From Patescibacteria group bacterium (lineage in GTDB: Bacteria; Patescibacteriota; Minisyncoccia; UBA6257; UBA9933), in the NCBI GenBank assembly GCA_030017615.1, contig JASEIG010000001.1, positions 22,518 through 86,517 of the forward strand: a stretch of 64,000 nt of DNA, read 5' to 3'. Of the stretch, positions 20,009 to 33,427 are shown piece after piece. The first letter of the stretch is position 1; each line of letters opens with the position of its first letter. The notes under the pieces are model-generated. The model did not search any database. It saw only the letters and a list, made by a program, of their open reading frames with translations, and was not told where the DNA came from. Both the position numbers and the translations under genes were made by a program.

Positions 20009-20732
20009 ATTATTCGTTCTTAGAAATAGAATAAATGAAGCTGATGATATAGCGACTTTTAAATTTATGCCGGTTAAAGGAAAAAATTTACCTTTTATAG
20101 CCGGACAATTCGTGAATGTTTATTTTTTAGATAATCGTTGCGGCGGACAAGGCAAGCCGTATTCTATTTCAAGCATTCCAAGCGATAAATTTTTAAGCAT
20201 TACCGTTAAAAAAATCGGGAAATTTTCGGGCGCTTTGCATGATTTGAAAATAGGAGAAAGGGTGAAAATAACCGAACCACAAGGATATTTTTGTCCGGAA
20301 AATCAAATGAAAAATATTGTTTTTTTAGCGGGCGGTATCGGCATTACCCCCTTTTACAGCGTGATAAAAGATTATTTTAGCAAAAAAGCCGATAAAAATC
20401 TTTTTCTTTTTTATGGTAATAAAACAAAAAAAGACGCCGTTTTCTTAAAAGAATTGAGCGACTTGGCGAAAAGTTGGGAAAGATTGAAAATAATCAATGC
20501 TTTCACGCGGGAACCTATTTTACCGTCTGACAAAAAGTGCGTGACAATATCAATGAATGTAAAAAACGAATTTAAGAGAATTGACGTTAAAATGCTTAAA
20601 AAACATTTGAAAAATTTAAACAATAAGCATTATTTTATTTGCGGTTCAATCGGTTTTGTCACCGATTTATGGAAAGAGCTTAAAGAAAACCAAATTAAAG
20701 AAGATTATATCAGAGTGGAATCGTTTTATTAA
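19989..20732 (+). CDS. Ferredoxin-NADP reductase-like FAD/NAD(P)-binding oxidoreductase
   Basis: KPYSISS (RxYS-type FAD motif) and VFLAGGIGITPFYSV NAD-binding GxGxxP motif. No extra Fe-S domain. Confidence 0.6.
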   Translation: MDPQKNKLFVLRNRINEADDIATFKFMPVKGKNLPFIAGQFVNVYFLDNRCGGQGKPYSISSIPSDKFLSITVKKIGKFSGALHDLKIGERVKITEPQGYFCPENQMKNIVFLAGGIGITPFYSVIKDYFSKKADKNLFLFYGNKTKKDAVFLKELSDLAKSWERLKIINAFTREPILPSDKKCVTISMNVKNEFKRIDVKMLKKHLKNLNNKHYFICGSIGFVTDLWKELKENQIKEDYIRVESFY

Positions 20733-20944
20733 TCCTCAATTTTAATTGCTTTTACTGGGCACATCAATGCCGCATTTTTGACACAACCAGTGTTTTCAAC
20801 TTCAAGTTCAAAGTCGTTGATATTTTTTTTGGAATTTTTAAGTTGTGCTAAATTATCTTCGAGGTTAATCTCAAAAAAATCCGGGCATATCGAGGCGCAA
20901 GCTCCGCATCCGACACATTTTTCTTTTTGGTGGACAATTTTCAT
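20729..20944 (-). CDS. 4Fe-4S ferredoxin (2 x CxxCxxCxxxCP)
   Basis: CVGCGACASICP and CVKNAALMCPVKAI. 71 aa. Confidence 0.65.
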   Translation of the reverse strand: MKIVHQKEKCVGCGACASICPDFFEINLEDNLAQLKNSKKNINDFELEVENTGCVKNAALMCPVKAIKIED

Positions 20945-22766: not shown

Positions 22767-22782
22767 TTTATTATGAAAAATT

Positions 22783-23190
22783 CAGAATACAAATTAATGA
22801 GTGAGATTGAGGATGACCATTGGTGGTGGTTAGGACGAAACAAAATAATTGAAGCGGTTATAAAAAATCAGATTGATTTTTCAGACAGAGTTATTAATAG
22901 CGGATGTTGGTTGCGGTTATGGGACAAATATCCTAATGCTTAAAAATATGGAAATGTTACCGCTTTAGAATTAAACGATGAGGCGATTTCCGAGCTTAAG
23001 GAAAAATTTGGAGGATAAATTAATATTATAAAGTGGAAATCTCCAGAGAAAATTAATAGAAAATTTGATTTAATTTTACTCACTTAACACAATTTTTAAA
23101 AACATTCTTTTTATAGGAGCGAAATTAATCCGAAAAATTTCACTGCCATTTGGCATAGCTATGGTTATTCTTATTCAGAAACATTATCGC
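22783..23190 (+). pseudogene. Decayed class I SAM-methyltransferase pseudogene (multiple frameshifts)
   Basis: Frame 1 gives MKNSEYKLMSEIEDDHWWWLGRNKIIEAVIKNQIDFSDRVINS and stops. A second frame continues as DVGCGYGTNILMLKNM (motif I). A third gives GNVTALELNDEAISELKEKFGG, then KFDLILL. No intact ORF. Confidence 0.5.
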
Positions 23191-23210
23191 GATTAAAAAA
23201 GGTGTTGTGT

Positions 23211-24899: not shown

Positions 24900-24942
24900 T
24901 TGACAAACCCGTCTTTTATGTTAGATATTAGGTAGTACAAAG
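24900..24942 (+). promoter_or_regulatory. Promoter/leader cassette copy A: TTGACA-N17-TAGATA + GGTAGTACAAA box
   Basis: ttgacaaacccgtcttttatgttagatattaggtagtacaaag, about 50 nt upstream of the fcl-like start. Same architecture recurs at 26010, 27905, 29228, 31899 (and a degenerate copy at 30305). Confidence 0.5.
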
Positions 24943-24994
24943 ATCGTTTTATAAGGCGAATAAAATAAAATAAGAATGAAAGGAGCAGAAAACC

Positions 24995-25933
24995 ATGTTA
25001 GACAGAAATGATAAAATTTATATTGCCAATCATGCGGGATTATTGGGTTTTGCGCTGGAGAAGGCGTTGAGAGGTAAAGATTTTGGGAATCTTTTGATAA
25101 AAGCAAAGGAAGATTTGGATTTATTGGATGATAAATCAGTAGCAGAATTTTTTCAGAAAGAAAAACCGAATCATGTTTTTTTACCGAGTTATAAAAGCGG
25201 CAGCATTCAGGCGAATATTAAATATCCGGCTGAATTTATTTATGAAAATTTAGTTACTCAAAATAACGTTATTCATAACGCTTATTTGAGTGGCGTCAAA
25301 AAACTTTTGTTTGTTGGCGCTTCGTGCGTGTATCCCAAAGATTCACCCCAACCAATGAAAGAGGATTATTTGATGACCGGGGAAATTGAGATCACTAATC
25401 AGGCATATTCAGTGGCAAAAATAGCCGGTATCGAAATGTGTAGGGCGTATAACAAACAATATGGAACAAAGTTTATTTCGGTAATTCCAGCGACTCTTTA
25501 TGGTCCGAACGATCATTTTGATCTGGAAAATTCCCATGTCCTTTCCTCGTTAATAAGAAAATTTCACGAAGCAAAGATAAAAAATCAAAGTGAGGTTATT
25601 TTATGGGGGAGCGGGAAACCAAGAAGGGAATTTTTATATTCCGACGATCTGGCTGATGCCTGTGTTTTTTTGATGAGCGGAAATTTCAACGTTGATTTGG
25701 TAAATATCGGAAGTGGCGAAGATTTTGAAATAAAAGAGCTGGCTGAAAAGGTAAAAAATGCCACCGGATTTAACGGAAAAATAATATGGGATATTTCAAA
25801 ACTTGATGGTGTTATGAAGAAATTATTGGATTCAAGTATGATTAAAAATGTCGGATGGAAGCATAAAGTTGACATTGACGATGGTATCAAAAGAATGTAT
25901 GAATGGTTTGTTGTAAATTGTGCGAAGAGATGA
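24995..25933 (+). CDS. fcl: GDP-L-fucose synthase family (Fcl/ColC-like GDP-4-keto-6-deoxy-sugar 3,5-epimerase/4-reductase)
   Basis: YPAEFIYENL, KLLFVGASCVYPK, TNQAYSVAKIAGIEMC, LYGPNDHF..NSHV and WGSGKPRREFLYSDDLA align closely to E. coli Fcl. Second Fcl-family gene in the window, so the exact substrate (fucose vs colitose vs 6-deoxyheptose) is open. Confidence 0.75.
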   Translation: MLDRNDKIYIANHAGLLGFALEKALRGKDFGNLLIKAKEDLDLLDDKSVAEFFQKEKPNHVFLPSYKSGSIQANIKYPAEFIYENLVTQNNVIHNAYLSGVKKLLFVGASCVYPKDSPQPMKEDYLMTGEIEITNQAYSVAKIAGIEMCRAYNKQYGTKFISVIPATLYGPNDHFDLENSHVLSSLIRKFHEAKIKNQSEVILWGSGKPRREFLYSDDLADACVFLMSGNFNVDLVNIGSGEDFEIKELAEKVKNATGFNGKIIWDISKLDGVMKKLLDSSMIKNVGWKHKVDIDDGIKRMYEWFVVNCAKR

Positions 25934-25963
25934 TAATAAGAAGTCTATTCAATAAGTTAATTT

Positions 25964-25997
25964 TAATCCCGGGACGATTCTAATCCCGGGTTTTTTA
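25964..25997 (+). terminator. Rho-independent terminator (aatcccggg..cccggg + T6)
   Basis: Inverted repeat CCCGGGA/TCCCGGG with a 9-nt loop, followed by TTTTTT. Lies after the fcl-like stop. Confidence 0.55.
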
Positions 25998-26009
25998 TAT
26001 GTTAATAAT

Positions 26010-26052
26010 TTGACAGGATTGTTGTTTTCTATTAAATATTAGTCAGTACAAA
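26010..26052 (+). promoter_or_regulatory. Promoter/leader cassette copy B: TTGACA-N17-TAAATA + TCAGTACAAA box
   Basis: ttgacaggattgttgttttctattaaatattagtcagtacaaa. Downstream leader (aagcgaataaaaatgaataaggagga) is also similar to copy A. Confidence 0.5.
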
Positions 26053-26091
26053 TTGCTATATTAAGCGAATAAAAATGAATAAGGAGGACTT

Positions 26092-26907
26092 ATGAAGCCT
26101 GAAATATTGGATTTTTTAACGAAAAAAGCATTGTGGGTAAGAAGAGAAACAATAAAAATTCATGGCATTGCTCCTGAAACAAGACTGGCTTCGTCGCTGT
26201 CTGATGTTGAGATTTTCGTGTCTTTGTATTACGGAAAAATTTTGAATTTTAATCCAAAAAAGCCGAAATGGTTGGGCAGGGATCGTTTTATAATCAGCAA
26301 AGCCCATGGGGCAATTTCTTTGTATCCGATATTGGCGGACTTCGGTTTTTTTGAAAAAAGCGAACTAACAAGAGTTTGCCAAAAGGGATCTTTTTTGGGA
26401 GGAATTCCAGATACACAAATTTCAGGGTTTGAAACCGTTAACGGAGCTTTGGGTCATGGTCTTGGAGTCGCTTGCGGATCAGCTATTGTTTTAAAGTCAA
26501 AGGGTCTAAAAGTTTTTGTTTTGATGGGTGACGGAGAGTTGTTTGAAGGCGCGGTTTGGGAAGCTGTAATGTTTGCTTTTCAGCATAAGCTTGGAAATCT
26601 AGTTTTGATCATTGATAATAATAAGATTTCCATGCTTGATTATTGCAAAAACATTATCAATTTAGACCCATTGGAAAAAAAATTTCAGGCGTTTGGATGG
26701 AAAGCTGTTGTTGTGGATGGTCATAATATTGATAAATTGGCAAATTCTTTAAAGGATTTAAAGGCGGATAATAGTGATTATCCTAAGGTGTTGATAGCAA
26801 ATACCGTCAAAGGTAAGGGCGTTTCTCAACTTGAAAATGATGTTTTGTGCCATGTAAAATCTTTAAATAAAGAGGAGATTGCCAGAGCAATGGAGGAATT
26901 GAAATGA
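26092..26907 (+). CDS. tktA: Transketolase, N-terminal (TPP pyrophosphate-binding) subunit
   Basis: GHGLGVACGSA...VLMGDGELFEGAVWEA TPP-binding motif (GDG...E). 271 aa, split-transketolase form. Confidence 0.8.
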   Translation: MKPEILDFLTKKALWVRRETIKIHGIAPETRLASSLSDVEIFVSLYYGKILNFNPKKPKWLGRDRFIISKAHGAISLYPILADFGFFEKSELTRVCQKGSFLGGIPDTQISGFETVNGALGHGLGVACGSAIVLKSKGLKVFVLMGDGELFEGAVWEAVMFAFQHKLGNLVLIIDNNKISMLDYCKNIINLDPLEKKFQAFGWKAVVVDGHNIDKLANSLKDLKADNSDYPKVLIANTVKGKGVSQLENDVLCHVKSLNKEEIARAMEELK

Positions 26908-27848
26908 ATATAAAACCAAGGACAATGAGAGACTCTTTTATAGAAGCTGTCTGCGAAAGAATGGATGAAAATAAAAACATTTTTTTCGTAACAGCCGATT
27001 GCGGTGCTCCGGCTTTGGACAAGCTGAAGGAAGATTTCAGCGACAGATTCATAAATGTCGGAATTGCCGAACAAAATTTGATAAATGTCGCGGCAGGACT
27101 TGCTTTGGAAGGATGCGTCGTTTACGCCTATGCGATCGCCCCTTTTCTTACCATGAGGGCTTATGAGCAGATAAGGCAAAATTTATCCATTGCTTCACAA
27201 GTAAGGCCTGTTAACGTAAATCTTATCGGTGTTGGAGCGGGGATGAGTTATGTTGTTTCCGGGCCGACCCATCATTGTTTTGAGGATATCGCGATTATGA
27301 GGCTTATGCCGAATATGACGGTATTTTCTCCAAGTGATTGGAAATTAGCCGCTGATTTTGCCGGTTATACAATTCATAAAAGCGGACCCAAGTATTTGCG
27401 GTTTGATGGGAAAACATTGCCTTTAATTTACAAAGACACAGACAACATTGTTTTGGAAAACGGTTTTTATAAACTGTTGAATGGCGATAAAGTTTGTATT
27501 ATTTCCACCGGATACATGACGCATAAGGCGCTGAAAGTTGCAAGCGAATTTCAAAATGTAGGCGTCATAGACGTTTTTATACTCAAACCGCTGAATGAAA
27601 AATTGCTGTTTGAAGCCATTAAAAATTACCGGCATATCATCACCGTCGAGGAAACATTCATAAATAACGGCGGGTTGGATTGTCTGGTGTCAAAAGTCAT
27701 CCGGGATAACCGGCCAAATATCGGTTTTGACAATCTGGGTATCAGTGATAAGCATATTTTTGAGCTTGGAAACAGGGATTATCTACATAAGCTTAACGGG
27801 TTGGATGAGGAAAATATTAAAGAAATTATTTGGGAAAATAATTGGTAA
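26904..27848 (+). CDS. tktB: Transketolase, C-terminal (pyrimidine-binding) subunit
   Basis: Transketolase Pyr domain (IAEQNLINVAAGLALEG) and a C-terminal domain. 4-bp overlap with the N-terminal subunit gene. Confidence 0.8.
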   Translation: MNIKPRTMRDSFIEAVCERMDENKNIFFVTADCGAPALDKLKEDFSDRFINVGIAEQNLINVAAGLALEGCVVYAYAIAPFLTMRAYEQIRQNLSIASQVRPVNVNLIGVGAGMSYVVSGPTHHCFEDIAIMRLMPNMTVFSPSDWKLAADFAGYTIHKSGPKYLRFDGKTLPLIYKDTDNIVLENGFYKLLNGDKVCIISTGYMTHKALKVASEFQNVGVIDVFILKPLNEKLLFEAIKNYRHIITVEETFINNGGLDCLVSKVIRDNRPNIGFDNLGISDKHIFELGNRDYLHKLNGLDEENIKEIIWENNW

Positions 27849-27863
27849 CAATTTAGAGTTGTA

Positions 27864-27896
27864 GCAGGCCCCGGCATTTTGTCGGGGCTTTTTTAT
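27864..27896 (+). terminator. Rho-independent terminator (gccccgg...ccggggc + T-run)
   Basis: GC stem with a 9-nt loop followed by TTTTTTATT, directly after the transketolase C-subunit gene. Confidence 0.6.
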
Positions 27897-27904
27897 TGGT
27901 TAGA

Positions 27905-27948
27905 TTGACGACCAAATCATTTTCTGTTAAATATTTGTTAGTACAAAA
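27905..27948 (+). promoter_or_regulatory. Promoter/leader cassette copy C: TTGACG-N17-TAAATA + TTAGTACAAAA box
   Basis: ttgacgaccaaatcattttctgttaaatatttgttagtacaaaaa, followed by a small hairpin ccgcttttgcgg and RBS aaaggagagg. Confidence 0.5.
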
Positions 27949-27990
27949 ACCGCTTTTGCGGCAAAAATTGAAAAAGGAGAGGACAATAAT

Positions 27991-29160
27991 ATGGATATCA
28001 GATATTATCTTGCGGAAGATACGATTGATAAGCGGGATATTGACGCGTTAATCCGGTGGTTAGGGACTTGCCCGCGTCTGACTAAAGGAAAGCTAACTCC
28101 GGAATTTGAAGAAAAATGGAGCAATTGGATTGGAATGAAGTATTCGGTTTTTTGTAATTCTGGTTCATCGGCAAATTTGTTGATGTATTATACTTTGCTG
28201 ACTTCCGGAGTTCTTAGAAATAAAAAGGTTATCGTTCCGAGTGTCGGCTGGGTGACGACAATCGCGCCGGCAATCCAATTCGGTTTTGAACCGATAATGT
28301 GCGAGGCGGATCCCGATACTTTCAGTCTGGATTTGAACCATCTCCAGGAGCTTCTTAAAAAACACGATCCTTCAACGGTTATATTGGTCCAAGTTTTGGG
28401 AGTTCCTCACAAGATGGATGAAATCATGAAGCTTAAGGAAAAGTACGGTTTTATTCTACTTGAGGATGCTTGTGCCGCAATGGGTTCTTCGTACCACGGA
28501 AAGAAAGTCGGATCTTTCGGGGATATGAGTAGTGCCTCGTTGTATTTTGGACATCAGATTTCAACTATTGAAGGTGGATTGGTTTCCACTAACAATAAGG
28601 AATTTTATGATGTTCTACTTATGATTAGGAGCCACGGGTGGAGTAAGGATTTAGATCAAGAAACCCATAATCAGCTTGTTCAAAAACATAACATAGATGA
28701 TTTTCACTCCCCGTTTGTCTTTTATGAGCTTGGTTTTAATCTCCGTTCGACCGACTTAAACGCTTTTTTGGGAATAAGACAAATTGATAAAATGGAATGG
28801 CTGGTTTCACGGAGATGGGAAAACCATTGTTTTTACAAAGATCTTTTGGATAATAAATTTTATTCCCAGAAGTATGACGCGGATTCAATTGTTTGCAGTA
28901 TTCATTTTGGAATGCTGGCAAATAATGGAGATGAACGAAAAAAAATCATAAAAGCTCTAGAAAAGAATGGTATTGAAACGCGTATTTTTTCCGCAGGCAA
29001 TCTCGGACTTCACCCGTTTTGGTATGAACGGTATGGAAAATTTTCCGCGCCGATGGCGGACAGAATTCATCATACTGGTTTGTTTCTTCCTCAAAATCCG
29101 TCGCTTAAACCGAAAGATATCAGATTTATTTCGGAAGTGATATTAGATAGTGTGAAGTAA
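27991..29160 (+). CDS. DegT/DnrJ/EryC1-family PMP-dependent sugar 3-dehydratase (ColD / CDP-6-deoxy-hexulose 3-dehydrase E1-like; His replaces the PLP lysine)
   Basis: Family fold is evident. In the conserved SFHxxKxITTGEGG block the sequence reads SLYFGHQISTIEGG, with His at the Lys position. This is the hallmark of ColD (GDP-4-keto-6-deoxymannose 3-dehydratase) and E1 dehydrases. Confidence 0.65.
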   Translation: MDIRYYLAEDTIDKRDIDALIRWLGTCPRLTKGKLTPEFEEKWSNWIGMKYSVFCNSGSSANLLMYYTLLTSGVLRNKKVIVPSVGWVTTIAPAIQFGFEPIMCEADPDTFSLDLNHLQELLKKHDPSTVILVQVLGVPHKMDEIMKLKEKYGFILLEDACAAMGSSYHGKKVGSFGDMSSASLYFGHQISTIEGGLVSTNNKEFYDVLLMIRSHGWSKDLDQETHNQLVQKHNIDDFHSPFVFYELGFNLRSTDLNAFLGIRQIDKMEWLVSRRWENHCFYKDLLDNKFYSQKYDADSIVCSIHFGMLANNGDERKKIIKALEKNGIETRIFSAGNLGLHPFWYERYGKFSAPMADRIHHTGLFLPQNPSLKPKDIRFISEVILDSVK

Positions 29161-29163
29161 ATT

Positions 29164-29200
29164 GCATCCCCGCGCCTGAAAAGGCCGCGGGGATTTTTTG
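29164..29200 (+). terminator. Rho-independent terminator (atccccgcg...cgcggggat + T6)
   Basis: Perfect 9-bp GC-rich inverted repeat followed by TTTTTTG, after the dehydratase stop. Confidence 0.65.
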
Positions 29201-29227
29201 TTGCAATGTTAATAAATTTTTATAAGT

Positions 29228-29270
29228 TTGACTATAAGTTTATTTCTTGTTAAATATTTAACAGTATAAA
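29228..29270 (+). promoter_or_regulatory. Promoter/leader cassette copy D: TTGACT-N17-TAAATA + ACAGTATAAAA box
   Basis: ttgactataagtttatttcttgttaaatatttaacagtataaaa, followed by a small hairpin atcacttttaagtgat and RBS agggagg. Confidence 0.45.
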
Positions 29271-29313
29271 ATCACTTTTAAGTGATATTAAAATTTAATA
29301 TAGGGAGGTTGAT

Positions 29314-30249
29314 ATGTTTAAAATTTTAATAACAGGAGCGGCAGGATATTTGGGTTCAGTGTTGGTGCCGGAGCTTTTAATCAAGGGTTATACAGTTGTT
29401 GCTATTGATAATTTTCTTTTTAATCAGACATCTCTTCTGGATGTTTGCTGTTACAAGGAATTAATAGTGATTCGCGGAGATGCAAGAGATAAAAAATTAA
29501 TTTCCAAACATCTTAAAGGAGTCGATTTTATAATTCCTTTGGCTTGTATTGTGGGAGCGCCTGCATGTAAAAAAGATCCGGAAGCGTCTAAAAGCACTAA
29601 TCTGGACGCGATTAAGATGATTCTTGAACTTCGCGAAGAAGACCAGAAGATAATTTATCCGAATACCAACAGCGGTTACGGTATAGGCGAAAAAGAAAAA
29701 TATTGCGACGAAAAAACGCCGCTTAATCCCATCTCGTTTTATGGAAAACTCAAGGTTGAGGCGGAAAAAGACATTTTGAGAGCGGGAAACGGAATTACTT
29801 TAAGACTGGCTACTGTATTTGGAATCAGTCCGCGTATGCGTTTGGATCTTCTGGTAAATGATTTTGTATATCGGGCAGTATACGACCGTTTCGTTGTTCT
29901 TTTTGAATCGCATTTCAAGCGGAATTACATTCACGTAAGAGACGTTGCCCGGGCTTTCCTGCACGCGATGGAAAATTTTGATGCAATGAAAAATGAGGCG
30001 TATAATGTCGGTTTGAGTGATGCAAATCTCAGCAAGATGGAGTTGTGCGAAAAAATTAAAAAACAACTACCTGAGTTTTATTTTGTTGAAGCCGAGATCG
30101 GCAAGGATCCGGACAGACGGGATTACATTGTCAGCAATGAAAAGATAGAAGGAACCGGTTTTAAAACGTTGGTTTCGCTCCAGGATGGAATTGCGGAACT
30201 GATAAAGGGATATCAGGTTATCAAGAGAACGCAGTTTGCGAACGTTTGA
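29314..30249 (+). CDS. NAD-dependent epimerase/dehydratase family protein (nucleotide-sugar 4,6-dehydratase/epimerase/reductase)
   Basis: ILITGAAGYLGSVLV Rossmann motif. YGKLK catalytic YxxxK. 311 aa extended SDR. Confidence 0.65.
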   Translation: MFKILITGAAGYLGSVLVPELLIKGYTVVAIDNFLFNQTSLLDVCCYKELIVIRGDARDKKLISKHLKGVDFIIPLACIVGAPACKKDPEASKSTNLDAIKMILELREEDQKIIYPNTNSGYGIGEKEKYCDEKTPLNPISFYGKLKVEAEKDILRAGNGITLRLATVFGISPRMRLDLLVNDFVYRAVYDRFVVLFESHFKRNYIHVRDVARAFLHAMENFDAMKNEAYNVGLSDANLSKMELCEKIKKQLPEFYFVEAEIGKDPDRRDYIVSNEKIEGTGFKTLVSLQDGIAELIKGYQVIKRTQFANV

Positions 30250-30267
30250 TTGATTTGTTTTTATTAT

Positions 30268-30305
30268 AAGCTCCTTATAGAATTTTCCGTAAGGAGCTTT
30301 TTTAT
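30268..30305 (+). terminator. Rho-independent terminator (aagctcctta...taaggagctt + T-run)
   Basis: 10-bp inverted repeat with an 11-nt loop followed by TTTTTTATT. Confidence 0.6.
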
Positions 30306-30376
30306 TGACAAAAGTCAAATTAATTAACAATATATGAGCAGTTCTTAATCCAATAAAATACGAAATGGAGGATTAA

Positions 30377-31876
30377 ATGAAACAGACCGATGTATTATTT
30401 GTTGTTCCCGGAAACCATAAAAAAGTGTTTCAGGGTCTTGGAAATGATTTTGCGGCGATTGAATCGCCGGCTCAAACTGGATTATTTGCCAATTATTTAA
30501 AAATGATTAAAGGTTGTTCTGTCGGTGTTATTGATATGCCCGCATTGGGCGATTTATCCTGTAATGCGGCGGCAGAAATAGTTTTTGCTTATAATCCAAT
30601 TCTTGTTGTAATGATGGTTTATGGGCATCAGCCTTCGGCGTCCACTCAAAATATGCTGGCGGCAAGATCAGCTTGTGAAGCCATCAAAGAAAAGATGCCC
30701 GATGCCAAAATACTAATGACTGGAACTCATCCCGCGGCATTGCCTAAACGAACTCTTATGGAAGAACCAATTGATTTTGTGTGCGATGGTGAGGGACTTG
30801 TGACAATCTATGAAACATTGCAGATGTTAAAGTCCGGGACTGACGATTTTAGTAAGGTAAGTAATTTATGGTATTGGCAAAATAGAATGCCGAAAAGATC
30901 AAAACTTTCGGCGGCGCTTATTACCAATCTTAACTCCGAATTTCTTCACGGAATTGCGTGGGATTTATTGCCAATGGAAAAGTATCGGACTCATAACTGG
31001 CATTGCTTTGATAATATTGAAAATCGTTCGCCTTACGCGGCGATACATACCTCTTTTGGTTGCCCATTTTCTTGCGTTTTTTGTTGTATCAACGCTCCGT
31101 TTGGAAAATCGTCTTATCGGATGTTTTCTCCGGAACATGTGATTTACGAAATAGACATTCTTGTCAATAAATATAATGTCAGAAATATAAAGTTTGTTGA
31201 TGAGTTGTTTGTTTTAAACGAGGAACACGTGAACGGGATTTGCGATTTGATAATCCAGCGCGGTTATGATTTGAACATCTGGGCTTATGCCAGAGTTGAT
31301 ACGGCAAAAGAGCGTCTGCTGGATAAAATGAGGCGAGCCGGAATCAGATGGCTGGCTTTAGGCATTGAATCCGGCAGCAAACATGTCAGAGACGGCGCCA
31401 AAAAGAAATTCAGCAATGAAGACGTAATTAATGTGGCAAGGAAAATCCAGAATGCTGGAATTTACGTCGGGGCAAATTATATTTTCGGTTTGCCTGACGA
31501 CACCTTGGAAACGATGCAAGAAACATTTAATCTTGCTTTAGAAATTAACGCTGAATGGGCGAACTTTTATTGCGCGATGGCTTATCCGGGCTCAAAACTG
31601 TATAACATCGCAAAGAAAAAAGAATTACCTTTACCAGACGACCCTGACGGTCCGGGATGGATAGGTTATTCCCAATACTCTTACGAATGTTTACCGCTTC
31701 CGACAGAAAATTTGTCGGCGGCAGATGTTCTGCGTTTTAGGGACAACGCGTTTCAGGTCTATTTTACAGAACGTCGTTATCTGAAAATGATAAGCGAAAA
31801 ATTTGGAAAAAAGGCCGTGGAACATATCAGGTTAATGACATCCAGTTTTCCACTAAAAAGGAAAATATTGGGATGA
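30377..31876 (+). CDS. B12-binding domain radical SAM protein (class B rSAM-like; candidate sugar C-methyltransferase or rearrangement enzyme)
   Basis: N-terminal B12-binding-like Rossmann region. FGCPFSCVFCC CxxxCxxC motif. Sits inside the deoxysugar cassette series. Confidence 0.7.
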   Translation: MKQTDVLFVVPGNHKKVFQGLGNDFAAIESPAQTGLFANYLKMIKGCSVGVIDMPALGDLSCNAAAEIVFAYNPILVVMMVYGHQPSASTQNMLAARSACEAIKEKMPDAKILMTGTHPAALPKRTLMEEPIDFVCDGEGLVTIYETLQMLKSGTDDFSKVSNLWYWQNRMPKRSKLSAALITNLNSEFLHGIAWDLLPMEKYRTHNWHCFDNIENRSPYAAIHTSFGCPFSCVFCCINAPFGKSSYRMFSPEHVIYEIDILVNKYNVRNIKFVDELFVLNEEHVNGICDLIIQRGYDLNIWAYARVDTAKERLLDKMRRAGIRWLALGIESGSKHVRDGAKKKFSNEDVINVARKIQNAGIYVGANYIFGLPDDTLETMQETFNLALEINAEWANFYCAMAYPGSKLYNIAKKKELPLPDDPDGPGWIGYSQYSYECLPLPTENLSAADVLRFRDNAFQVYFTERRYLKMISEKFGKKAVEHIRLMTSSFPLKRKILG

Positions 31877-31881
31877 ATTAC

Positions 31882-31920
31882 GGAGGATTTCGCGAAGTTT
31901 GCGGAATCCTCTTTTATTTT
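31882..31920 (+). terminator. Rho-independent terminator (gaggatttcgc...gcggaatcctc + T-run)
   Basis: 11-bp imperfect inverted repeat followed by TTTTATTTT. Overlaps the -35 of the next cassette promoter. Confidence 0.55.
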
Positions 31921-31943
31921 AAATATTCTGTGTTAGTATAAAT
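31899..31943 (+). promoter_or_regulatory. Promoter/leader cassette copy E (weaker -35 TTGCGG; AAATAT + TGTTAGTATAAA box)
   Basis: ttgcggaatcctcttttattttaaatattctgtgttagtataaa upstream of the GHMP kinase gene. Confidence 0.35.
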
Positions 31944-31984
31944 TATTATTCATAATTGAAGATTAAATTTCCAAACCTTAATTT

Positions 31985-32998
31985 ATGGTTATTACGCGAA
32001 CACCTTTTAGAATTTCTTTTTTCGGAGGGGGAACTGATTATCCTGTTTGGTATAAAAAGAACGGCGGAGCGGTGCTTTCCGCGTCAATTGATAAATATTG
32101 TTATATTACTTGCAGACATTTGCCGCCGTTTTTTGAGCATAAGATCAGGGTTGTTTGGTCAAAAATAGAAAGCGTCAAACATCATGATGAAATTCAGCAT
32201 CCATCGGCAAAAGAATGTTTGAAGCATCTTAATTTTGATAAAGGCATTGAAATACATCACGATGCCGATTTGCCGGCGCGCTCGGGTCTTGGTTCAAGTT
32301 CGGCCTTTACCGTCGGTCTTCTTAATGCCTTGTATGCTTTGAACGGAAAAATGGTGACTAAAAGGCAGTTGGCGCTTGATGCCATTCATGTTGAACAGGA
32401 AAGAATAAAAGAAAACGTTGGCTCACAGGACCAGACAGTCGCGGCTTTCGGTGGGTTCAATAAAATTGAATTCGGCGCTCCACATAAAATAAATGTTTTA
32501 CCCATTGTTTTAAAACATGACAGATTAAATGATCTTCAGAATCATTTGATGATGTTTTTTACCGGTTTTTCAAGAAATGCTTCGGATATTGCGGCGGAAC
32601 AGATTAAAAACACTCCTAAAAAATTTTCGGAATTAAAAGCCATGCATGAGATGGTGGAAAAAGCGATAGGCATACTTAACAGCGGTAAAAATCTTGACGA
32701 GTTCGGCAAACTTCTGGATGAAAACTGGAAAATAAAAAGAGGCCTTACTTCCCAAATAACCAATTCTTCAATAGATGAAATTTATGAAGCCGGATTGAAA
32801 GCCGGAGCCACCGGCGGTAAATTATTGGGGGCCGGAAGCGGAGGATTTATATTATTTTTTGTGAGACCGGAAAATCAGCAGAAAGTTAAAGACAGGTTAA
32901 AAAATCTTCTTTATGTTCCGTTTAAATTTGAAAATTCCGGGAGCCAGGTGATTTATTATGCTCCGCACGGAAATTTTCATGACAGTAACTCAAGCTGA
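31985..32998 (+). CDS. GHMP-family sugar kinase (HddA-like D-glycero-D-manno-heptose 7-phosphate kinase / sugar-1-kinase)
   Basis: PARSGLGSSSAFTVGLLNAL GHMP ATP-binding motif. About 337 aa. Paired with a downstream sugar-1-P nucleotidyltransferase. Confidence 0.7.
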   Translation: MVITRTPFRISFFGGGTDYPVWYKKNGGAVLSASIDKYCYITCRHLPPFFEHKIRVVWSKIESVKHHDEIQHPSAKECLKHLNFDKGIEIHHDADLPARSGLGSSSAFTVGLLNALYALNGKMVTKRQLALDAIHVEQERIKENVGSQDQTVAAFGGFNKIEFGAPHKINVLPIVLKHDRLNDLQNHLMMFFTGFSRNASDIAAEQIKNTPKKFSELKAMHEMVEKAIGILNSGKNLDEFGKLLDENWKIKRGLTSQITNSSIDEIYEAGLKAGATGGKLLGAGSGGFILFFVRPENQQKVKDRLKNLLYVPFKFENSGSQVIYYAPHGNFHDSNSS

Positions 32999-33063
32999 TT
33001 TAATTATTTAGGTCTTATGTAATCATTCGGATTCTTTAATAAAAAAATAATATGAGGAGATAA

Positions 33064-33360
33064 TGACAAAGATTGATATCGGGCCGAATGTTTCTTCCTG
33101 GGCAAAAAAAGAGGATGATTTTTCAGTCCAAACGCTCAAAGATGAATTTCTTAAGGAAGCCAAAAAGTTTCTGCCTGATTTGGAGACCGATGATTTAAAA
33201 TGAGCGTACAGCGGATTGAGAGCAAAAATTCGGCGAGGAAGATTTTATTATCAGGAAAGAAGCGGGAAATCCAACACTCATTAATCTGATAGGAATTGAA
33301 TCGCCCGGATTTACCGCCGCGTTTGCCATTGGCGAATACATGGCGGAAATGGTAGATTAA
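33064..33360 (+). pseudogene. Remnant of the C-terminal end of an FAD-dependent oxidoreductase (LhgO/GlpA-like), disrupted by frameshifts
   Basis: Three frames together give ...PDLETDDLK / AYSGLRAK / DFIIRKEAGNPTLINLIGIESPGFTAAFAIGEYMAEMVD*. This matches the C-terminal motif (GIESPGLT..AIAE) of FAD-dependent oxidoreductases. No upstream catalytic domain is present. Confidence 0.4.
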
Positions 33361-33427
33361 AAAAATATTCCAACGTAATGTTGAGGTATTTCTTGCCAAA
33401 AAGGAATAAAAGTTTTATAAATAATTT

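What the first reader, a model, noticed from the sequence alone, without database searches (positions are those of the whole stretch)
24900..31943. Repeated promoter/leader cassette (TTGACA-N17-TAAATA + TTAGTACAAA box) in front of five to six consecutive monocistronic sugar-pathway genes, each with its own hairpin terminator
Copies are upstream of the fcl-like gene (24900), transketolase-N (26010), 3-dehydratase (27905), SDR (29228) and the GHMP kinase (31899), with a degenerate copy before the B12-rSAM (30305). Each shows a near-consensus sigma70-like -35/-10 at 17-bp spacing, followed by a conserved 11-13-nt box (GTAGTACAAA / TCAGTACAAA / TTAGTACAAAA / ACAGTATAAAA / TGTTAGTATAAA) at the predicted +1 to +15. 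Copies C and D also have a small hairpin before the RBS. Each gene ends with a strong GC-hairpin plus T-run terminator (25964, 27864, 29164, 30268, 31882). This organisation differs from the overlapping operons elsewhere in the window. It suggests a co-regulated regulon, either an operator for a shared repressor or a conserved 5' leader element, or a modular horizontally assembled cassette. The block also looks more GC-rich than its flanks by eye.
Basis: seen in the sequence. Interest (0 to 1): 0.65.

Follow-up and report, generated by a model that had tools for sequence, protein, structure and literature searches.

The report
Repeated promoter-leader modules splitting an operon
In one lineage of uncultured Patescibacteria, a sugar-pathway operon that is tightly packed in all other relatives examined has been cut into separate transcription units by four related ~140-175-bp inserts (three with a terminator); this is a real and selected feature, but it is built from ordinary parts.

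Summary
The repeat is real but smaller than claimed. It has four copies (A 24900, B 26010, C 27905, D 29228), not five or six. Each copy has TTGAC, a 16-17-nt spacer with a T-tract, TGn-TAAATA, about 6 nt, (C/T)AGYAYAAA, a 4-6-bp stem-loop, an A-rich stretch, a strong SD and ATG.

The 20-nt core occurs 4 times against 0.02 expected and nowhere else in the 64 kb. A profile built only from a related contig finds exactly these four copies.

The 'degenerate' copy before the rSAM gene and the 'copy' before the GHMP kinase gene are older, different promoters shared with relatives. All five terminators are confirmed.

Comparison decides the evolution. Three genomes carry the modules: the window, L001, and L138/L141. 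Six other Patescibacteria lineages have the same genes overlapping or 1-42 nt apart. An Elusimicrobia and a deltaproteobacterial homologue, in a different gene order, also have these genes tightly packed. The modules are therefore derived insertions into an ancestral operon.

Four-fold sites between window and L001 are only 50% identical. The -35, -10, box and stem-loop (compensatory changes) are therefore kept by selection.

The modules are not a generic promoter, a mobile element or a horizontally assembled cassette. The role of the box and hairpin, probably a shared 5' leader, is untested. Interest is moderate.

The parts
24900..24994 (+). Module A. It has -35 TTGACA (24900-24905), a 16-nt spacer and TGT+TAGATA (24919-24927). 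The box TAGTACAAAG lies at 24933-24942 and the stem-loop at 24944-24959. The SD AAAGGAG is at 24979-24985. It lies upstream of the fcl-like epimerase/reductase gene 24995-25933.
25967..25996 (+). Intrinsic terminator after the fcl-like gene: CCCGGG...CCCGGG stem plus T6, -12.4 kcal/mol.
26010..26091 (+). Module B. It has -35 TTGACA, a 17-nt spacer and TAAATA (within 26030-26038). The box CAGTACAAA lies at 26044-26052 and the stem-loop at 26053-26068. The SD AAGGAGG is at 26081-26087. It lies upstream of the overlapping tktN/tktC pair, 26092-27848.
27866..27894 (+). Intrinsic terminator after tktC: -18.7 kcal/mol, followed by T6.
27905..27990 (+). Module C. It has -35 TTGACG, a 17-nt spacer and TGT+TAAATA (27925-27933). 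The box TAGTACAAAAA lies at 27939-27949 and the stem-loop CCGC-UUUU-GCGG at 27950-27961. The SD is at 27973-27982. It lies upstream of the DegT-family 3-dehydratase gene 27991-29160.
29166..29199 (+). Intrinsic terminator after the 3-dehydratase gene: -22.6 kcal/mol, followed by T6.
29228..29313 (+). Module D. It has -35 TTGACT, a 17-nt spacer and TGT+TAAATA (29248-29256). The box CAGTATAAAA lies at 29262-29271 and the stem-loop AUCACU-UUUA-AGUGAU at 29271-29286. The SD AGGGAGG is at 29302-29308. It lies upstream of the SDR gene 29314-30249.
30268..30376 (+). Not a family member. This is an older terminator (30268-30303, -16 kcal/mol) plus promoter E: TTGACA (30305-30310), 17 nt, CAATAT (30328-30333), SD at 30366-30372. 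It lies upstream of the B12-rSAM gene. A terminator plus a TTGAC promoter also precedes the rSAM gene in relatives that lack modules A-D.
31882..31984 (+). Not a family member. This is a terminator (31882-31915, -19.8 kcal/mol) plus an older promoter F, upstream of the GHMP kinase gene.
24995..32998 (+). The genes served by these units, all part of a larger surface-glycan locus. They are the fcl-like SDR, the split TPP transketolase, the CDP-6-deoxy-4-hexulose 3-dehydrase-like DegT protein, a second SDR, a B12-radical SAM enzyme and a GHMP (heptose-type) kinase.

Best explanation
**What it is (shown).**
- Four paralogous expression modules sit in front of the fcl-like gene, tktN-tktC, the 3-dehydratase gene and the SDR gene.
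- B, C and D each fill a whole 142-158-bp intergenic gap and begin with a strong intrinsic terminator. A (95 bp inside a 140-bp divergent gap) heads the cluster and has no terminator of its own.
- Then comes a sigma70-type promoter: TTGAC, a 16-17-nt spacer ending in a T-tract, an extended -10 TGn (absent in copy B), and TAAATA.
- Then comes a common 5' leader: (C/T)AGYAYAAA at the predicted start, a 4-6-bp stem-loop, an A-rich tract and a strong Shine-Dalgarno.

**How it arose (inferred by parsimony).** The common ancestor of three sampled Patescibacteria genomes acquired the modules at the head of, and at three gene junctions within, an ancestral tight operon. This turned the fcl-to-SDR part into four separately initiated and terminated units.

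**How it works (inferred, untested).**
- Transcription starts at the A of the box.
- The box and stem-loop are the first ~27 nt of each mRNA. They act at the RNA level as a shared leader that gives all four units the same start, stability and translation input.
- The leader may also be a binding site for one common factor.
- The upstream terminator insulates each unit from read-through.
For: **Repeat and its limits.**
- The 20-nt core occurs 4 times against 0.02 expected.
- Cross-validated profiles find only the four copies in each genome.
- Eleven copies from three genomes keep TTGAC, the T-tract, TA...AT and AG.A(C).AA invariant or nearly so.

**Selection.**
- Four-fold degenerate sites between window and L001 are 50% identical over 860 sites, which is near saturation.
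- Orthologous and paralogous promoter cores are equally similar, 0.64-0.79. The shared positions are therefore constrained, not recent.

**Stem-loop.**
- All eight 26-nt segments after the box fold into a hairpin. Mean MFE is -4.84 against -0.91 +/- 0.45 in two null models, with 0 of 2000 reaching it.
- In register, 95.5% of cells pair. Two of four pairs show compensatory changes (UA/CG and GC/AU), one of them among orthologous D copies. Slid controls pair at 23-52%.

**Terminators.** They are present at the same places in the window and in L001.

**Derived state.**
- L002/L003, L004, L133/L134, L135, L136/L137 and L142 have overlaps or gaps of 1-42 nt at these junctions, in the same gene order.
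- The Elusimicrobia (L139) and deltaproteobacterial (L140) clusters carry the same gene set in a different order, also tightly packed.
- L001 and L138/L141 share the modules.

**Strong SD as part of the module.** Six of 7 genes in the block have an SD, against 6 of 49 elsewhere (p = 1.8e-4).
Against: - There is no transcript evidence. Start sites, termination and promoter activity are all predicted.
- The -10 hexamer lacks the usual T at -7. The simple promoter scan listed only A among the sites it showed.
- Each hairpin alone is weak (-3.3 to -6.7 kcal/mol) and not significant on its own.
- The registered hairpin alignment was trimmed to the stem, so it leans towards the structure.
- A hairpin that starts 9-11 nt from the 5' end is not the classical 5'-terminal stabiliser.
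- Only 64 kb of the genome was visible, so further copies elsewhere in the genome cannot be excluded.
- The box could act at the DNA level.
- The origin of the module is unknown.
Confidence: 0.55

Rival explanations
1. The box is a DNA operator. A single trans-acting repressor or activator binds AGYAYAAA at the transcription start of all four promoters and makes them a regulon.
For: The box is an 8-10-bp sequence that is invariant or varies only by transitions. It sits exactly at +1 in 11 copies, under selection. It is absent from other promoters.
Against: - The box has no conserved dyad or direct-repeat symmetry. The left half, TTTGT, is present only in copy C.
- No DNA-binding regulator is encoded in the window.
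- An operator does not explain the adjacent stem-loop, which keeps its pairing but not its sequence.
Confidence: 0.2
2. The box and hairpin form a loading site for processive antitermination or promoter-proximal pausing. Analogues would be lambda nut boxA+boxB, the LoaP leader hairpin, ops/RfaH, or a sigma-dependent pause at a -10-like TAYAAA. On this reading the intergenic terminators are conditional.
For: - The architecture is a linear box plus a small hairpin, promoter-proximal, with terminators downstream.
- TAYAAA in the box resembles the module's own TAAATA.
- Polysaccharide operons elsewhere use NusG paralogues. The deltaproteobacterial homologue of this cluster starts with one.
- The LoaP system needs a small leader hairpin (PMC12691694).
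Against: - No NusG paralogue lies in the window.
- The loops are U/A-rich, vary in length and are not UNCG-type.
- Giving every unit its own promoter makes read-through unnecessary.
Confidence: 0.1
3. The modules are copies of a small non-autonomous mobile element (MITE- or Correia-like) that carries an outward promoter and a terminator.
For: The inserts are all 140-175 bp, sit in intergenic positions and have related sequence. The stems of terminators B-D share a CCCCG(G/C) theme.
Against: - There are no terminal inverted repeats or target-site duplications.
- No further copies exist in 64 kb of the window or 21 kb of L001.
- None is found in the genome, metagenome or viral collections.
- Every copy is in the same orientation, placed exactly between a stop codon and the next start codon.
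Confidence: 0.07
4. The box is simply the organism's generic promoter/start-site context, and the similarity reflects ordinary strong promoters.
For: A (T/C)AG about 5-7 nt after the -10 recurs at several unrelated promoters of this clade, for example window 50945 (minus strand) and the promoters before the rSAM gene in L135 and L004. The first three bases of the box may therefore be generic.
Against: None of about 20 other TTGAC-type sites has YAYAAA or the hairpin. The promoter regions of housekeeping genes at 50-64 kb lack it. Profile searches give no further hit.
Confidence: 0.05
5. Read on the minus strand, the small hairpin followed by TTTTGTACT is an intrinsic terminator that blocks antisense transcription.
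For: One search lists 27962-27949 (minus strand) as terminator-like. A T-run of 3-6 follows the stem on the minus strand in most copies.
Against: The stems are only 3-6 bp (-3 to -7 kcal/mol). No minus-strand gene is upstream. This reading does not explain conservation of GTAC/AG beyond the T-run.
Confidence: 0.03

Closest known systems
Putative mobile promoters / promoter propagation (Matus-Garcia, Nijveen & van Passel 2012, PMC3488235)
   Same: Homologous promoter-containing upstream regions sit in front of non-homologous genes within one genome.
   Different: - Those families are defined as 50-100 nt with at least 80% identity. These copies are 68-81% identical over 37-47 nt, so they are old and kept by selection rather than recent.
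- All copies lie in tandem inside one former operon, three of the four paired with a terminator.
- They include a structured leader and an SD.
Operon death by insertion, rearrangement or replacement (Price, Arkin & Alm 2006, PMC1480536)
   Same: A conserved operon stops being one transcription unit in one lineage.
   Different: Here the genes stay adjacent, in the same order and orientation. They are separated by short regulatory inserts, not by inserted genes, inversions or gene replacement. All new units receive the same promoter.
Leader elements of polysaccharide and secondary-metabolite operons: ops/JUMPStart-RfaH, Bacteroides UpxY leaders (PMC11685472), the LoaP dfn leader hairpin (PMC12691694)
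   Same: Each is a short conserved element and/or small hairpin in the 5' leader of glycan or secondary-metabolite gene clusters that contain internal terminators.
   Different: - No NusG paralogue is nearby.
- The hairpin loop is not UNCG, and the box is unrelated to ops (GGCGGTAG; from my own knowledge).
- Those systems use one leader per long operon. Here there is one leader per gene.
Refactored synthetic gene clusters and phage T7-type repeated promoters (from my own knowledge)
   Same: Each gene is flanked by the same promoter with a fixed initial transcribed sequence, an RBS and a terminator.
   Different: This case is natural, uses host sigma70-type signals and is conserved across three diverged genomes.
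5' stem-loop mRNA stabilisers (ompA, ermC, aprE leaders; from my own knowledge)
   Same: A small hairpin lies near the 5' end of the transcript.
   Different: Those hairpins lie within a few nt of the 5' end. Here 9-11 unpaired conserved nt precede the stem.

Membership tests
Sigma70-type (housekeeping) bacterial promoter | -35 hexamer close to TTGACA | tested here: met
   TTGAC is invariant in 11 of 11 copies.
Sigma70-type (housekeeping) bacterial promoter | 16-18-bp spacer and a -10 hexamer close to TATAAT, with A at -11 and T at -7 | tested here: inconclusive
   - The spacer is 17 nt (16 in window copy A).
- The hexamer is TAAATA, TAGATA, TAAGTA or TAATCA. T-12 and A-11 are invariant, but -7 is A.
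- An extended -10 TGn is present in 10 of 11 copies.
- The consensus scan listed only A among the sites it showed.
Sigma70-type (housekeeping) bacterial promoter | Transcription initiates 6-8 nt downstream of the -10 | not testable with these tools
   No RNA data are available. The predicted +1 is the A of AGYAY.
Intrinsic (Rho-independent) terminator | GC-rich stem-loop directly followed by a U-run, located downstream of a stop codon | tested here: met
   Five sites fold to -12.4 to -22.6 kcal/mol and have T4-T6 runs. Four of the five have z-scores of -3.3 to -5.4. The orthologous sites in L001 also fold.
Putative mobile promoter family (PMC3488235) | 50-100 nt upstream sequence shared at 80% identity or more between non-homologous genes | tested here: not met
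   Paralogous identity is 68-72% over 47 nt and 70-81% over 37 nt. It is 0.64-0.79 over the promoter core.
MITE / Correia-like repeat element | Terminal inverted repeats, target-site duplication, and many dispersed copies | tested here: not met
   There are no consistent TIRs. No other copies occur in the window, in relatives or in the public collections.
LoaP-type leader hairpin | UNCG-type tetraloop hairpin in the leader, plus a cognate NusG paralogue | tested here: not met
   The loops are UUUU, UAUA, UUUA, GAAU or AUAUUA, 4-7 nt long. No PF02357 (NusG) protein is encoded in the window.
Any curated RNA family (Rfam 15) | Match at or above the family's gathering score | tested here: not met
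   There are no matches at gathering score in the window. Only sub-threshold chance hits occur, mostly over the terminators.

The most novel reading that the evidence does not exclude
The AGYAYAAA box plus the covarying stem-loop is an undescribed cis-regulatory 5'-leader RNA element of Patescibacteria glycan genes. A single trans-acting factor (protein or sRNA) would recognise it. That factor would coordinately set stability, translation or terminator read-through of units that were deliberately uncoupled from an ancestral operon. This would be an alternative to the NusG-paralogue antitermination used by other phyla for the same gene cluster.
Probability: 0.15. Interest if true: 0.65.

Novelty: new variant of a known kind. 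Interest (0 to 1): 0.4.

Why it matters
I found no transcription start-site mapping for Patescibacteria/CPR bacteria in the paper library, and most of them are uncultured. This locus gives 11 aligned, selection-filtered examples of what a strong promoter, start site, 5' leader, SD and terminator look like in one such lineage.

It also documents a clean case of an operon being broken up where it stands. The genes keep their order and orientation, but each gets a copy of the same expression module and, at the three internal junctions, a terminator. That differs from the usual routes of operon loss, and it resembles the design that synthetic biologists use to refactor clusters.

If the shared leader proves to be a regulatory RNA site, it would be a handle on how reduced-genome bacteria with few regulators coordinate surface-glycan synthesis.

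Tried and rejected
1. **Collection scans.** I scanned with TTGAC-N17-TTAAATAT-N5-AGYAYAAA.
   - GTDB species genomes gave 2 hits (Brachyspira, Bacteroidota) and JGI metagenomes gave 6. None has the leader, hairpin or SD, so all are chance.
2. **Exact look-up of the window's DegT protein.** It is not on record. The source was named only through the homologue search: a Patescibacteria MAG with an 87-kb contig.
3. **Rfam.** Nothing was found at gathering score. Only sub-threshold chance hits appeared, mostly over the terminators.
4. **Local regulator.** Pfam scans of all ~56 window genes found no DNA-binding regulator or NusG paralogue. The only signalling protein is a lone histidine kinase at 58506-60110.
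5. **MITE idea.** No terminal inverted repeats were found.
6. **Dyad symmetry of the box.** TTTGT-N4-ACAAA is perfect only in copy C and scores 2-4 of 5 in the others, so I rejected it as an operator signature (read).
7. **GTAC methylation-site idea.** I rejected it because three copies read AGCAC.
8. **Origin from the older rSAM promoter.** The L135 and L137 versions look similar from -35 to +4, but the profile scores are not significant (E 4-32). I left this open.
9. **RNAalifold on the plain MAFFT alignment.** It recovers the 4-bp helix but shifts the two D copies by one column. I re-aligned trimmed segments for the pair counts.
10. **Paper search on Patescibacteria promoters and start sites.** It found nothing relevant.

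Full report
**Source and context.** The window comes from an uncultured Patescibacteria MAG. Two homologue searches returned 100%-identical NCBI entries from an 87.2-kb contig, one named QMD86_00200. Positions 0-44 kb form one large surface-glycan locus. It encodes glycosyltransferases, methyltransferases, radical SAM enzymes, a flippase, the GDP-mannose/fucose genes and an initiating sugar transferase. Housekeeping genes follow at 50-64 kb.

The region in question encodes:
- an fcl-like SDR (24995-25933);
- a split TPP transketolase (26092-26907 and 26904-27848, overlapping by 4 nt);
- a DegT-family enzyme that sources name CDP-6-deoxy-D-xylo-4-hexulose 3-dehydrase (27991-29160);
- a second SDR (29314-30249);
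- a B12-radical SAM enzyme (30377-31876);
- a GHMP kinase (31985-32998), followed by a nucleotidyltransferase.

**The observation.** Four intergenic regions share one cassette. In order, it contains:
- TTGAC(N);
- a 17-nt spacer (16 in copy A) that ends in a T-tract;
- TGn followed by TAAATA (TAGATA in A; B has TAT instead of TGT);
- about 6 variable nt;
- (C/T)AGTA(C/T)AAA;
- a short stem-loop and an A-rich stretch;
- a strong GGAG/GAGG Shine-Dalgarno, then ATG.

The 20-nt core TAAATATT-N4-AGTAYAAA with at most 1 mismatch occurs four times against 0.02 expected. AGTACAAA occurs three times in 128 kb of both strands, all in the cassettes. A profile HMM trained only on the four copies of a related contig (L001) finds exactly the four window copies (E 2e-11 to 9e-4). 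The next hit has E 0.34. The reverse experiment gives the same result.

**What is not part of the family.**
- The 'degenerate' copy at 30305 is another promoter, TTGACA-17-CAATAT. A terminator plus a TTGAC promoter also precedes the rSAM gene in relatives that lack the cassette: L002/L003, L004, L135 and L137.

**Terminators.** Four of the five have z-scores of -3.3 to -5.4. L001 has terminators at the same five places with different stem sequences.

**Comparative evidence on evolution.** The closest relatives were fetched through the DegT protein and the fast-evolving membrane protein next to the cluster.

*Genomes that carry the modules:*
- the window;
- L001 (Logan SRR22388057; DegT 85% and membrane protein 74% identical), with A-D at orthologous positions;
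- L138 and L141 (two contigs of SRR22388141, presumably one genome), with A, C and D visible.

*Lineages with tight junctions in the same gene order.* These have overlaps or gaps of 1-42 nt at the same junctions:
- Hainich groundwater contigs L002/L003, L133/L134 and L136/L137;
- a Wolfebacteria MAG (L004);
- L135 and L142.

*Other phyla.* An Elusimicrobia genome (L139) and a deltaproteobacterial contig (L140) carry the same gene set in a different order. Their genes also overlap or lie a few nt apart.

By parsimony, the tight operon is ancestral and the ~140-175-bp inserts are derived in the common ancestor of the three module-bearing genomes. This excludes the 'horizontally assembled cassette' reading. 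The terminator-promoter pairs before the rSAM and GHMP genes are older and more widely shared.

**Evidence for selection.**
- Between window and L001, identity at four-fold degenerate sites is 0.50 over 860 sites, close to saturation for this base composition.
- In the promoter core, orthologous pairs (0.64-0.77) are no more alike than paralogous pairs (0.64-0.79). What the copies share is therefore what is constrained.
- Across 11 copies the following positions are invariant or nearly so:
  - TTGAC;
  - two T's of the T-tract;
  - G of TGn (10 of 11);
  - T-12, A-11 and the last two bases of TAAATAT;
  - AG.A(C).AA of the box.
- Variation in the box is mostly by transitions.

**The stem-loop.**
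- Mean MFE of the eight 26-nt segments is -4.84 kcal/mol. Both shuffles and GC-matched genomic windows give -0.91 +/- 0.45, and 0 of 2000 reach the observed value.
- The stem sequences differ (UCGU/GCGA, CCGC/GCGG, UCAC/GUGA).
- In a registered alignment of 11 copies, 42 of 44 cells pair. Two of four pairs show double changes: UA/CG and GC/AU. The GC/AU change separates D of the third genome from D of the other two. Slid controls pair in 23-52% of cells.
- Caveats: the alignment was trimmed to the stem, and there are few independent events.
- Conserved structure with changing sequence points to an RNA-level role, not a shared DNA operator.

**Specificity.**
- About 20 other non-coding TTGAC-N16-18-TAnnn(A/T) sites exist in the window and relatives. 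None has YAYAAA or the hairpin.
- Several of them have (T/C)AG about 5-7 nt after the -10. The first three bases of the box may therefore be a general start-site preference of the clade.
- Pattern scans of the GTDB species genomes, JGI metagenomes and IMG/VR found only chance matches.
- There are no terminal inverted repeats, no Rfam match, and no regulator or NusG paralogue in the window.

**The Shine-Dalgarno is part of the module.** Only 12 of 56 window genes have GGAG, GAGG or AGGA within 20 nt of the start. Six of those 12 are among the seven genes 24995-31876 (Fisher p = 1.8e-4).

**GC content.** The block is somewhat richer than its immediate flanks (0.38-0.40 against 0.32-0.35). Its GC3 (0.33-0.42) matches the housekeeping genes of the window, and it is the glycosyltransferase flanks that are low. 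This gives no support for foreign origin.

**Mechanism.**
- *Shown:* the anatomy, the copy number, the restriction to one lineage, the derived state, and purifying selection on -35, -10, box and stem.
- *Inferred:*
  - These are active housekeeping-sigma promoters that start at the A of the box.
  - The box and stem-loop are a common 5' leader.
  - Each upstream terminator insulates its unit.
  - As a result, four units get the same transcriptional and translational input instead of depending on one polycistronic message.
- *Most likely role of the box and stem:* a shared RNA leader that sets start, stability or translation, and possibly a site for one factor.
- *Alternatives:* a DNA operator, a nut/LoaP-like or sigma-pause loading site, a mobile element, a generic start context, and antisense terminators. 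These are weighed in the rival list.
- One comparison is worth noting. The deltaproteobacterial version of this cluster begins with a NusG paralogue, the usual device for carrying RNA polymerase through long glycan operons (PMC11685472, PMC12691694). The Patescibacteria lineage here may reach the same end by giving each gene its own promoter. This is speculation.

**Comparison with what is known.**
- The nearest concept is promoter propagation (PMC3488235). These copies fail its operational threshold of at least 80% identity over 50-100 nt. They are also arranged in tandem inside one former operon, three of them with terminators.
- The case is a form of operon death (PMC1480536), but not by the routes described there (gene insertion, rearrangement, replacement).
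- All the parts are ordinary: a sigma70-like promoter, an intrinsic terminator, an SD and a small leader hairpin. The combination, and its retention across three genomes, makes it a new variant of a known kind, not something categorically new.

**Verdict.** The feature is real, cleanly delimited and under selection. It is moderately interesting for operon evolution and as a rare window on expression signals in CPR bacteria. The regulon/leader idea remains open, and the horizontal-assembly idea is rejected.

Noticed in passing
window 33069-33360 (within the 429-nt gap 32999-33427): This is a frameshifted remnant covering only residues 270-370 of the FAD oxidoreductase (DAO family). The gene is intact in L001 (15091-16200) and in L133, L135 and L137, so here it is a truncated pseudogene between the GHMP kinase and nucleotidyltransferase genes.
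   Followed up: partly
window 22873-23181 (within the gap 22767-23210): This is a methyltransferase pseudogene. Three pieces in different frames match residues 1-72 and 180-212 of the Methyltransf_23 protein of L133.
   Followed up: partly
whole window, gene starts: Only 12 of 56 genes have a Shine-Dalgarno-like GGAG, GAGG or AGGA within 20 nt of the start. Ribosomal protein, hisS, pth and lepB genes lack one, so this organism seems to use mostly SD-independent initiation.
   Followed up: partly
L140 264-752: The deltaproteobacterial homologue of the sugar cluster is headed by a NusG paralogue (PF02357) followed by Wzz. No equivalent gene was found in the window or listed in any of the Patescibacteria loci fetched.
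   Followed up: no
window 20732-20941, minus strand: A small ferredoxin gene (~70 aa, 59% identical to L001's Fer4 protein) lies in what looks like a 277-nt intergenic gap. It falls below the 80-aa ORF cut-off.
   Followed up: yes
window 25965-25993: The terminator after the fcl-like gene is built from a direct repeat of TAATCCCGGG. The CCCGGG palindrome pairs with its second copy. The stems of terminators B, C and D all begin with CCCCG(G/C), which may mean the terminators were duplicated together with the promoters.
   Followed up: no
L133/L134, L135, L136/L137 versus window 24995-25933: The position of the fcl-like gene varies among relatives. In some it lies on the other side of the divergent membrane-protein gene. 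In L137 the transketolase pair sits after the rSAM gene. The cluster has therefore been rearranged repeatedly, even where its junctions are tight.
   Followed up: no
window 58506-60110: A 7TM-type histidine kinase has no response regulator adjacent to it. It is the only signalling protein in the window.
   Followed up: no
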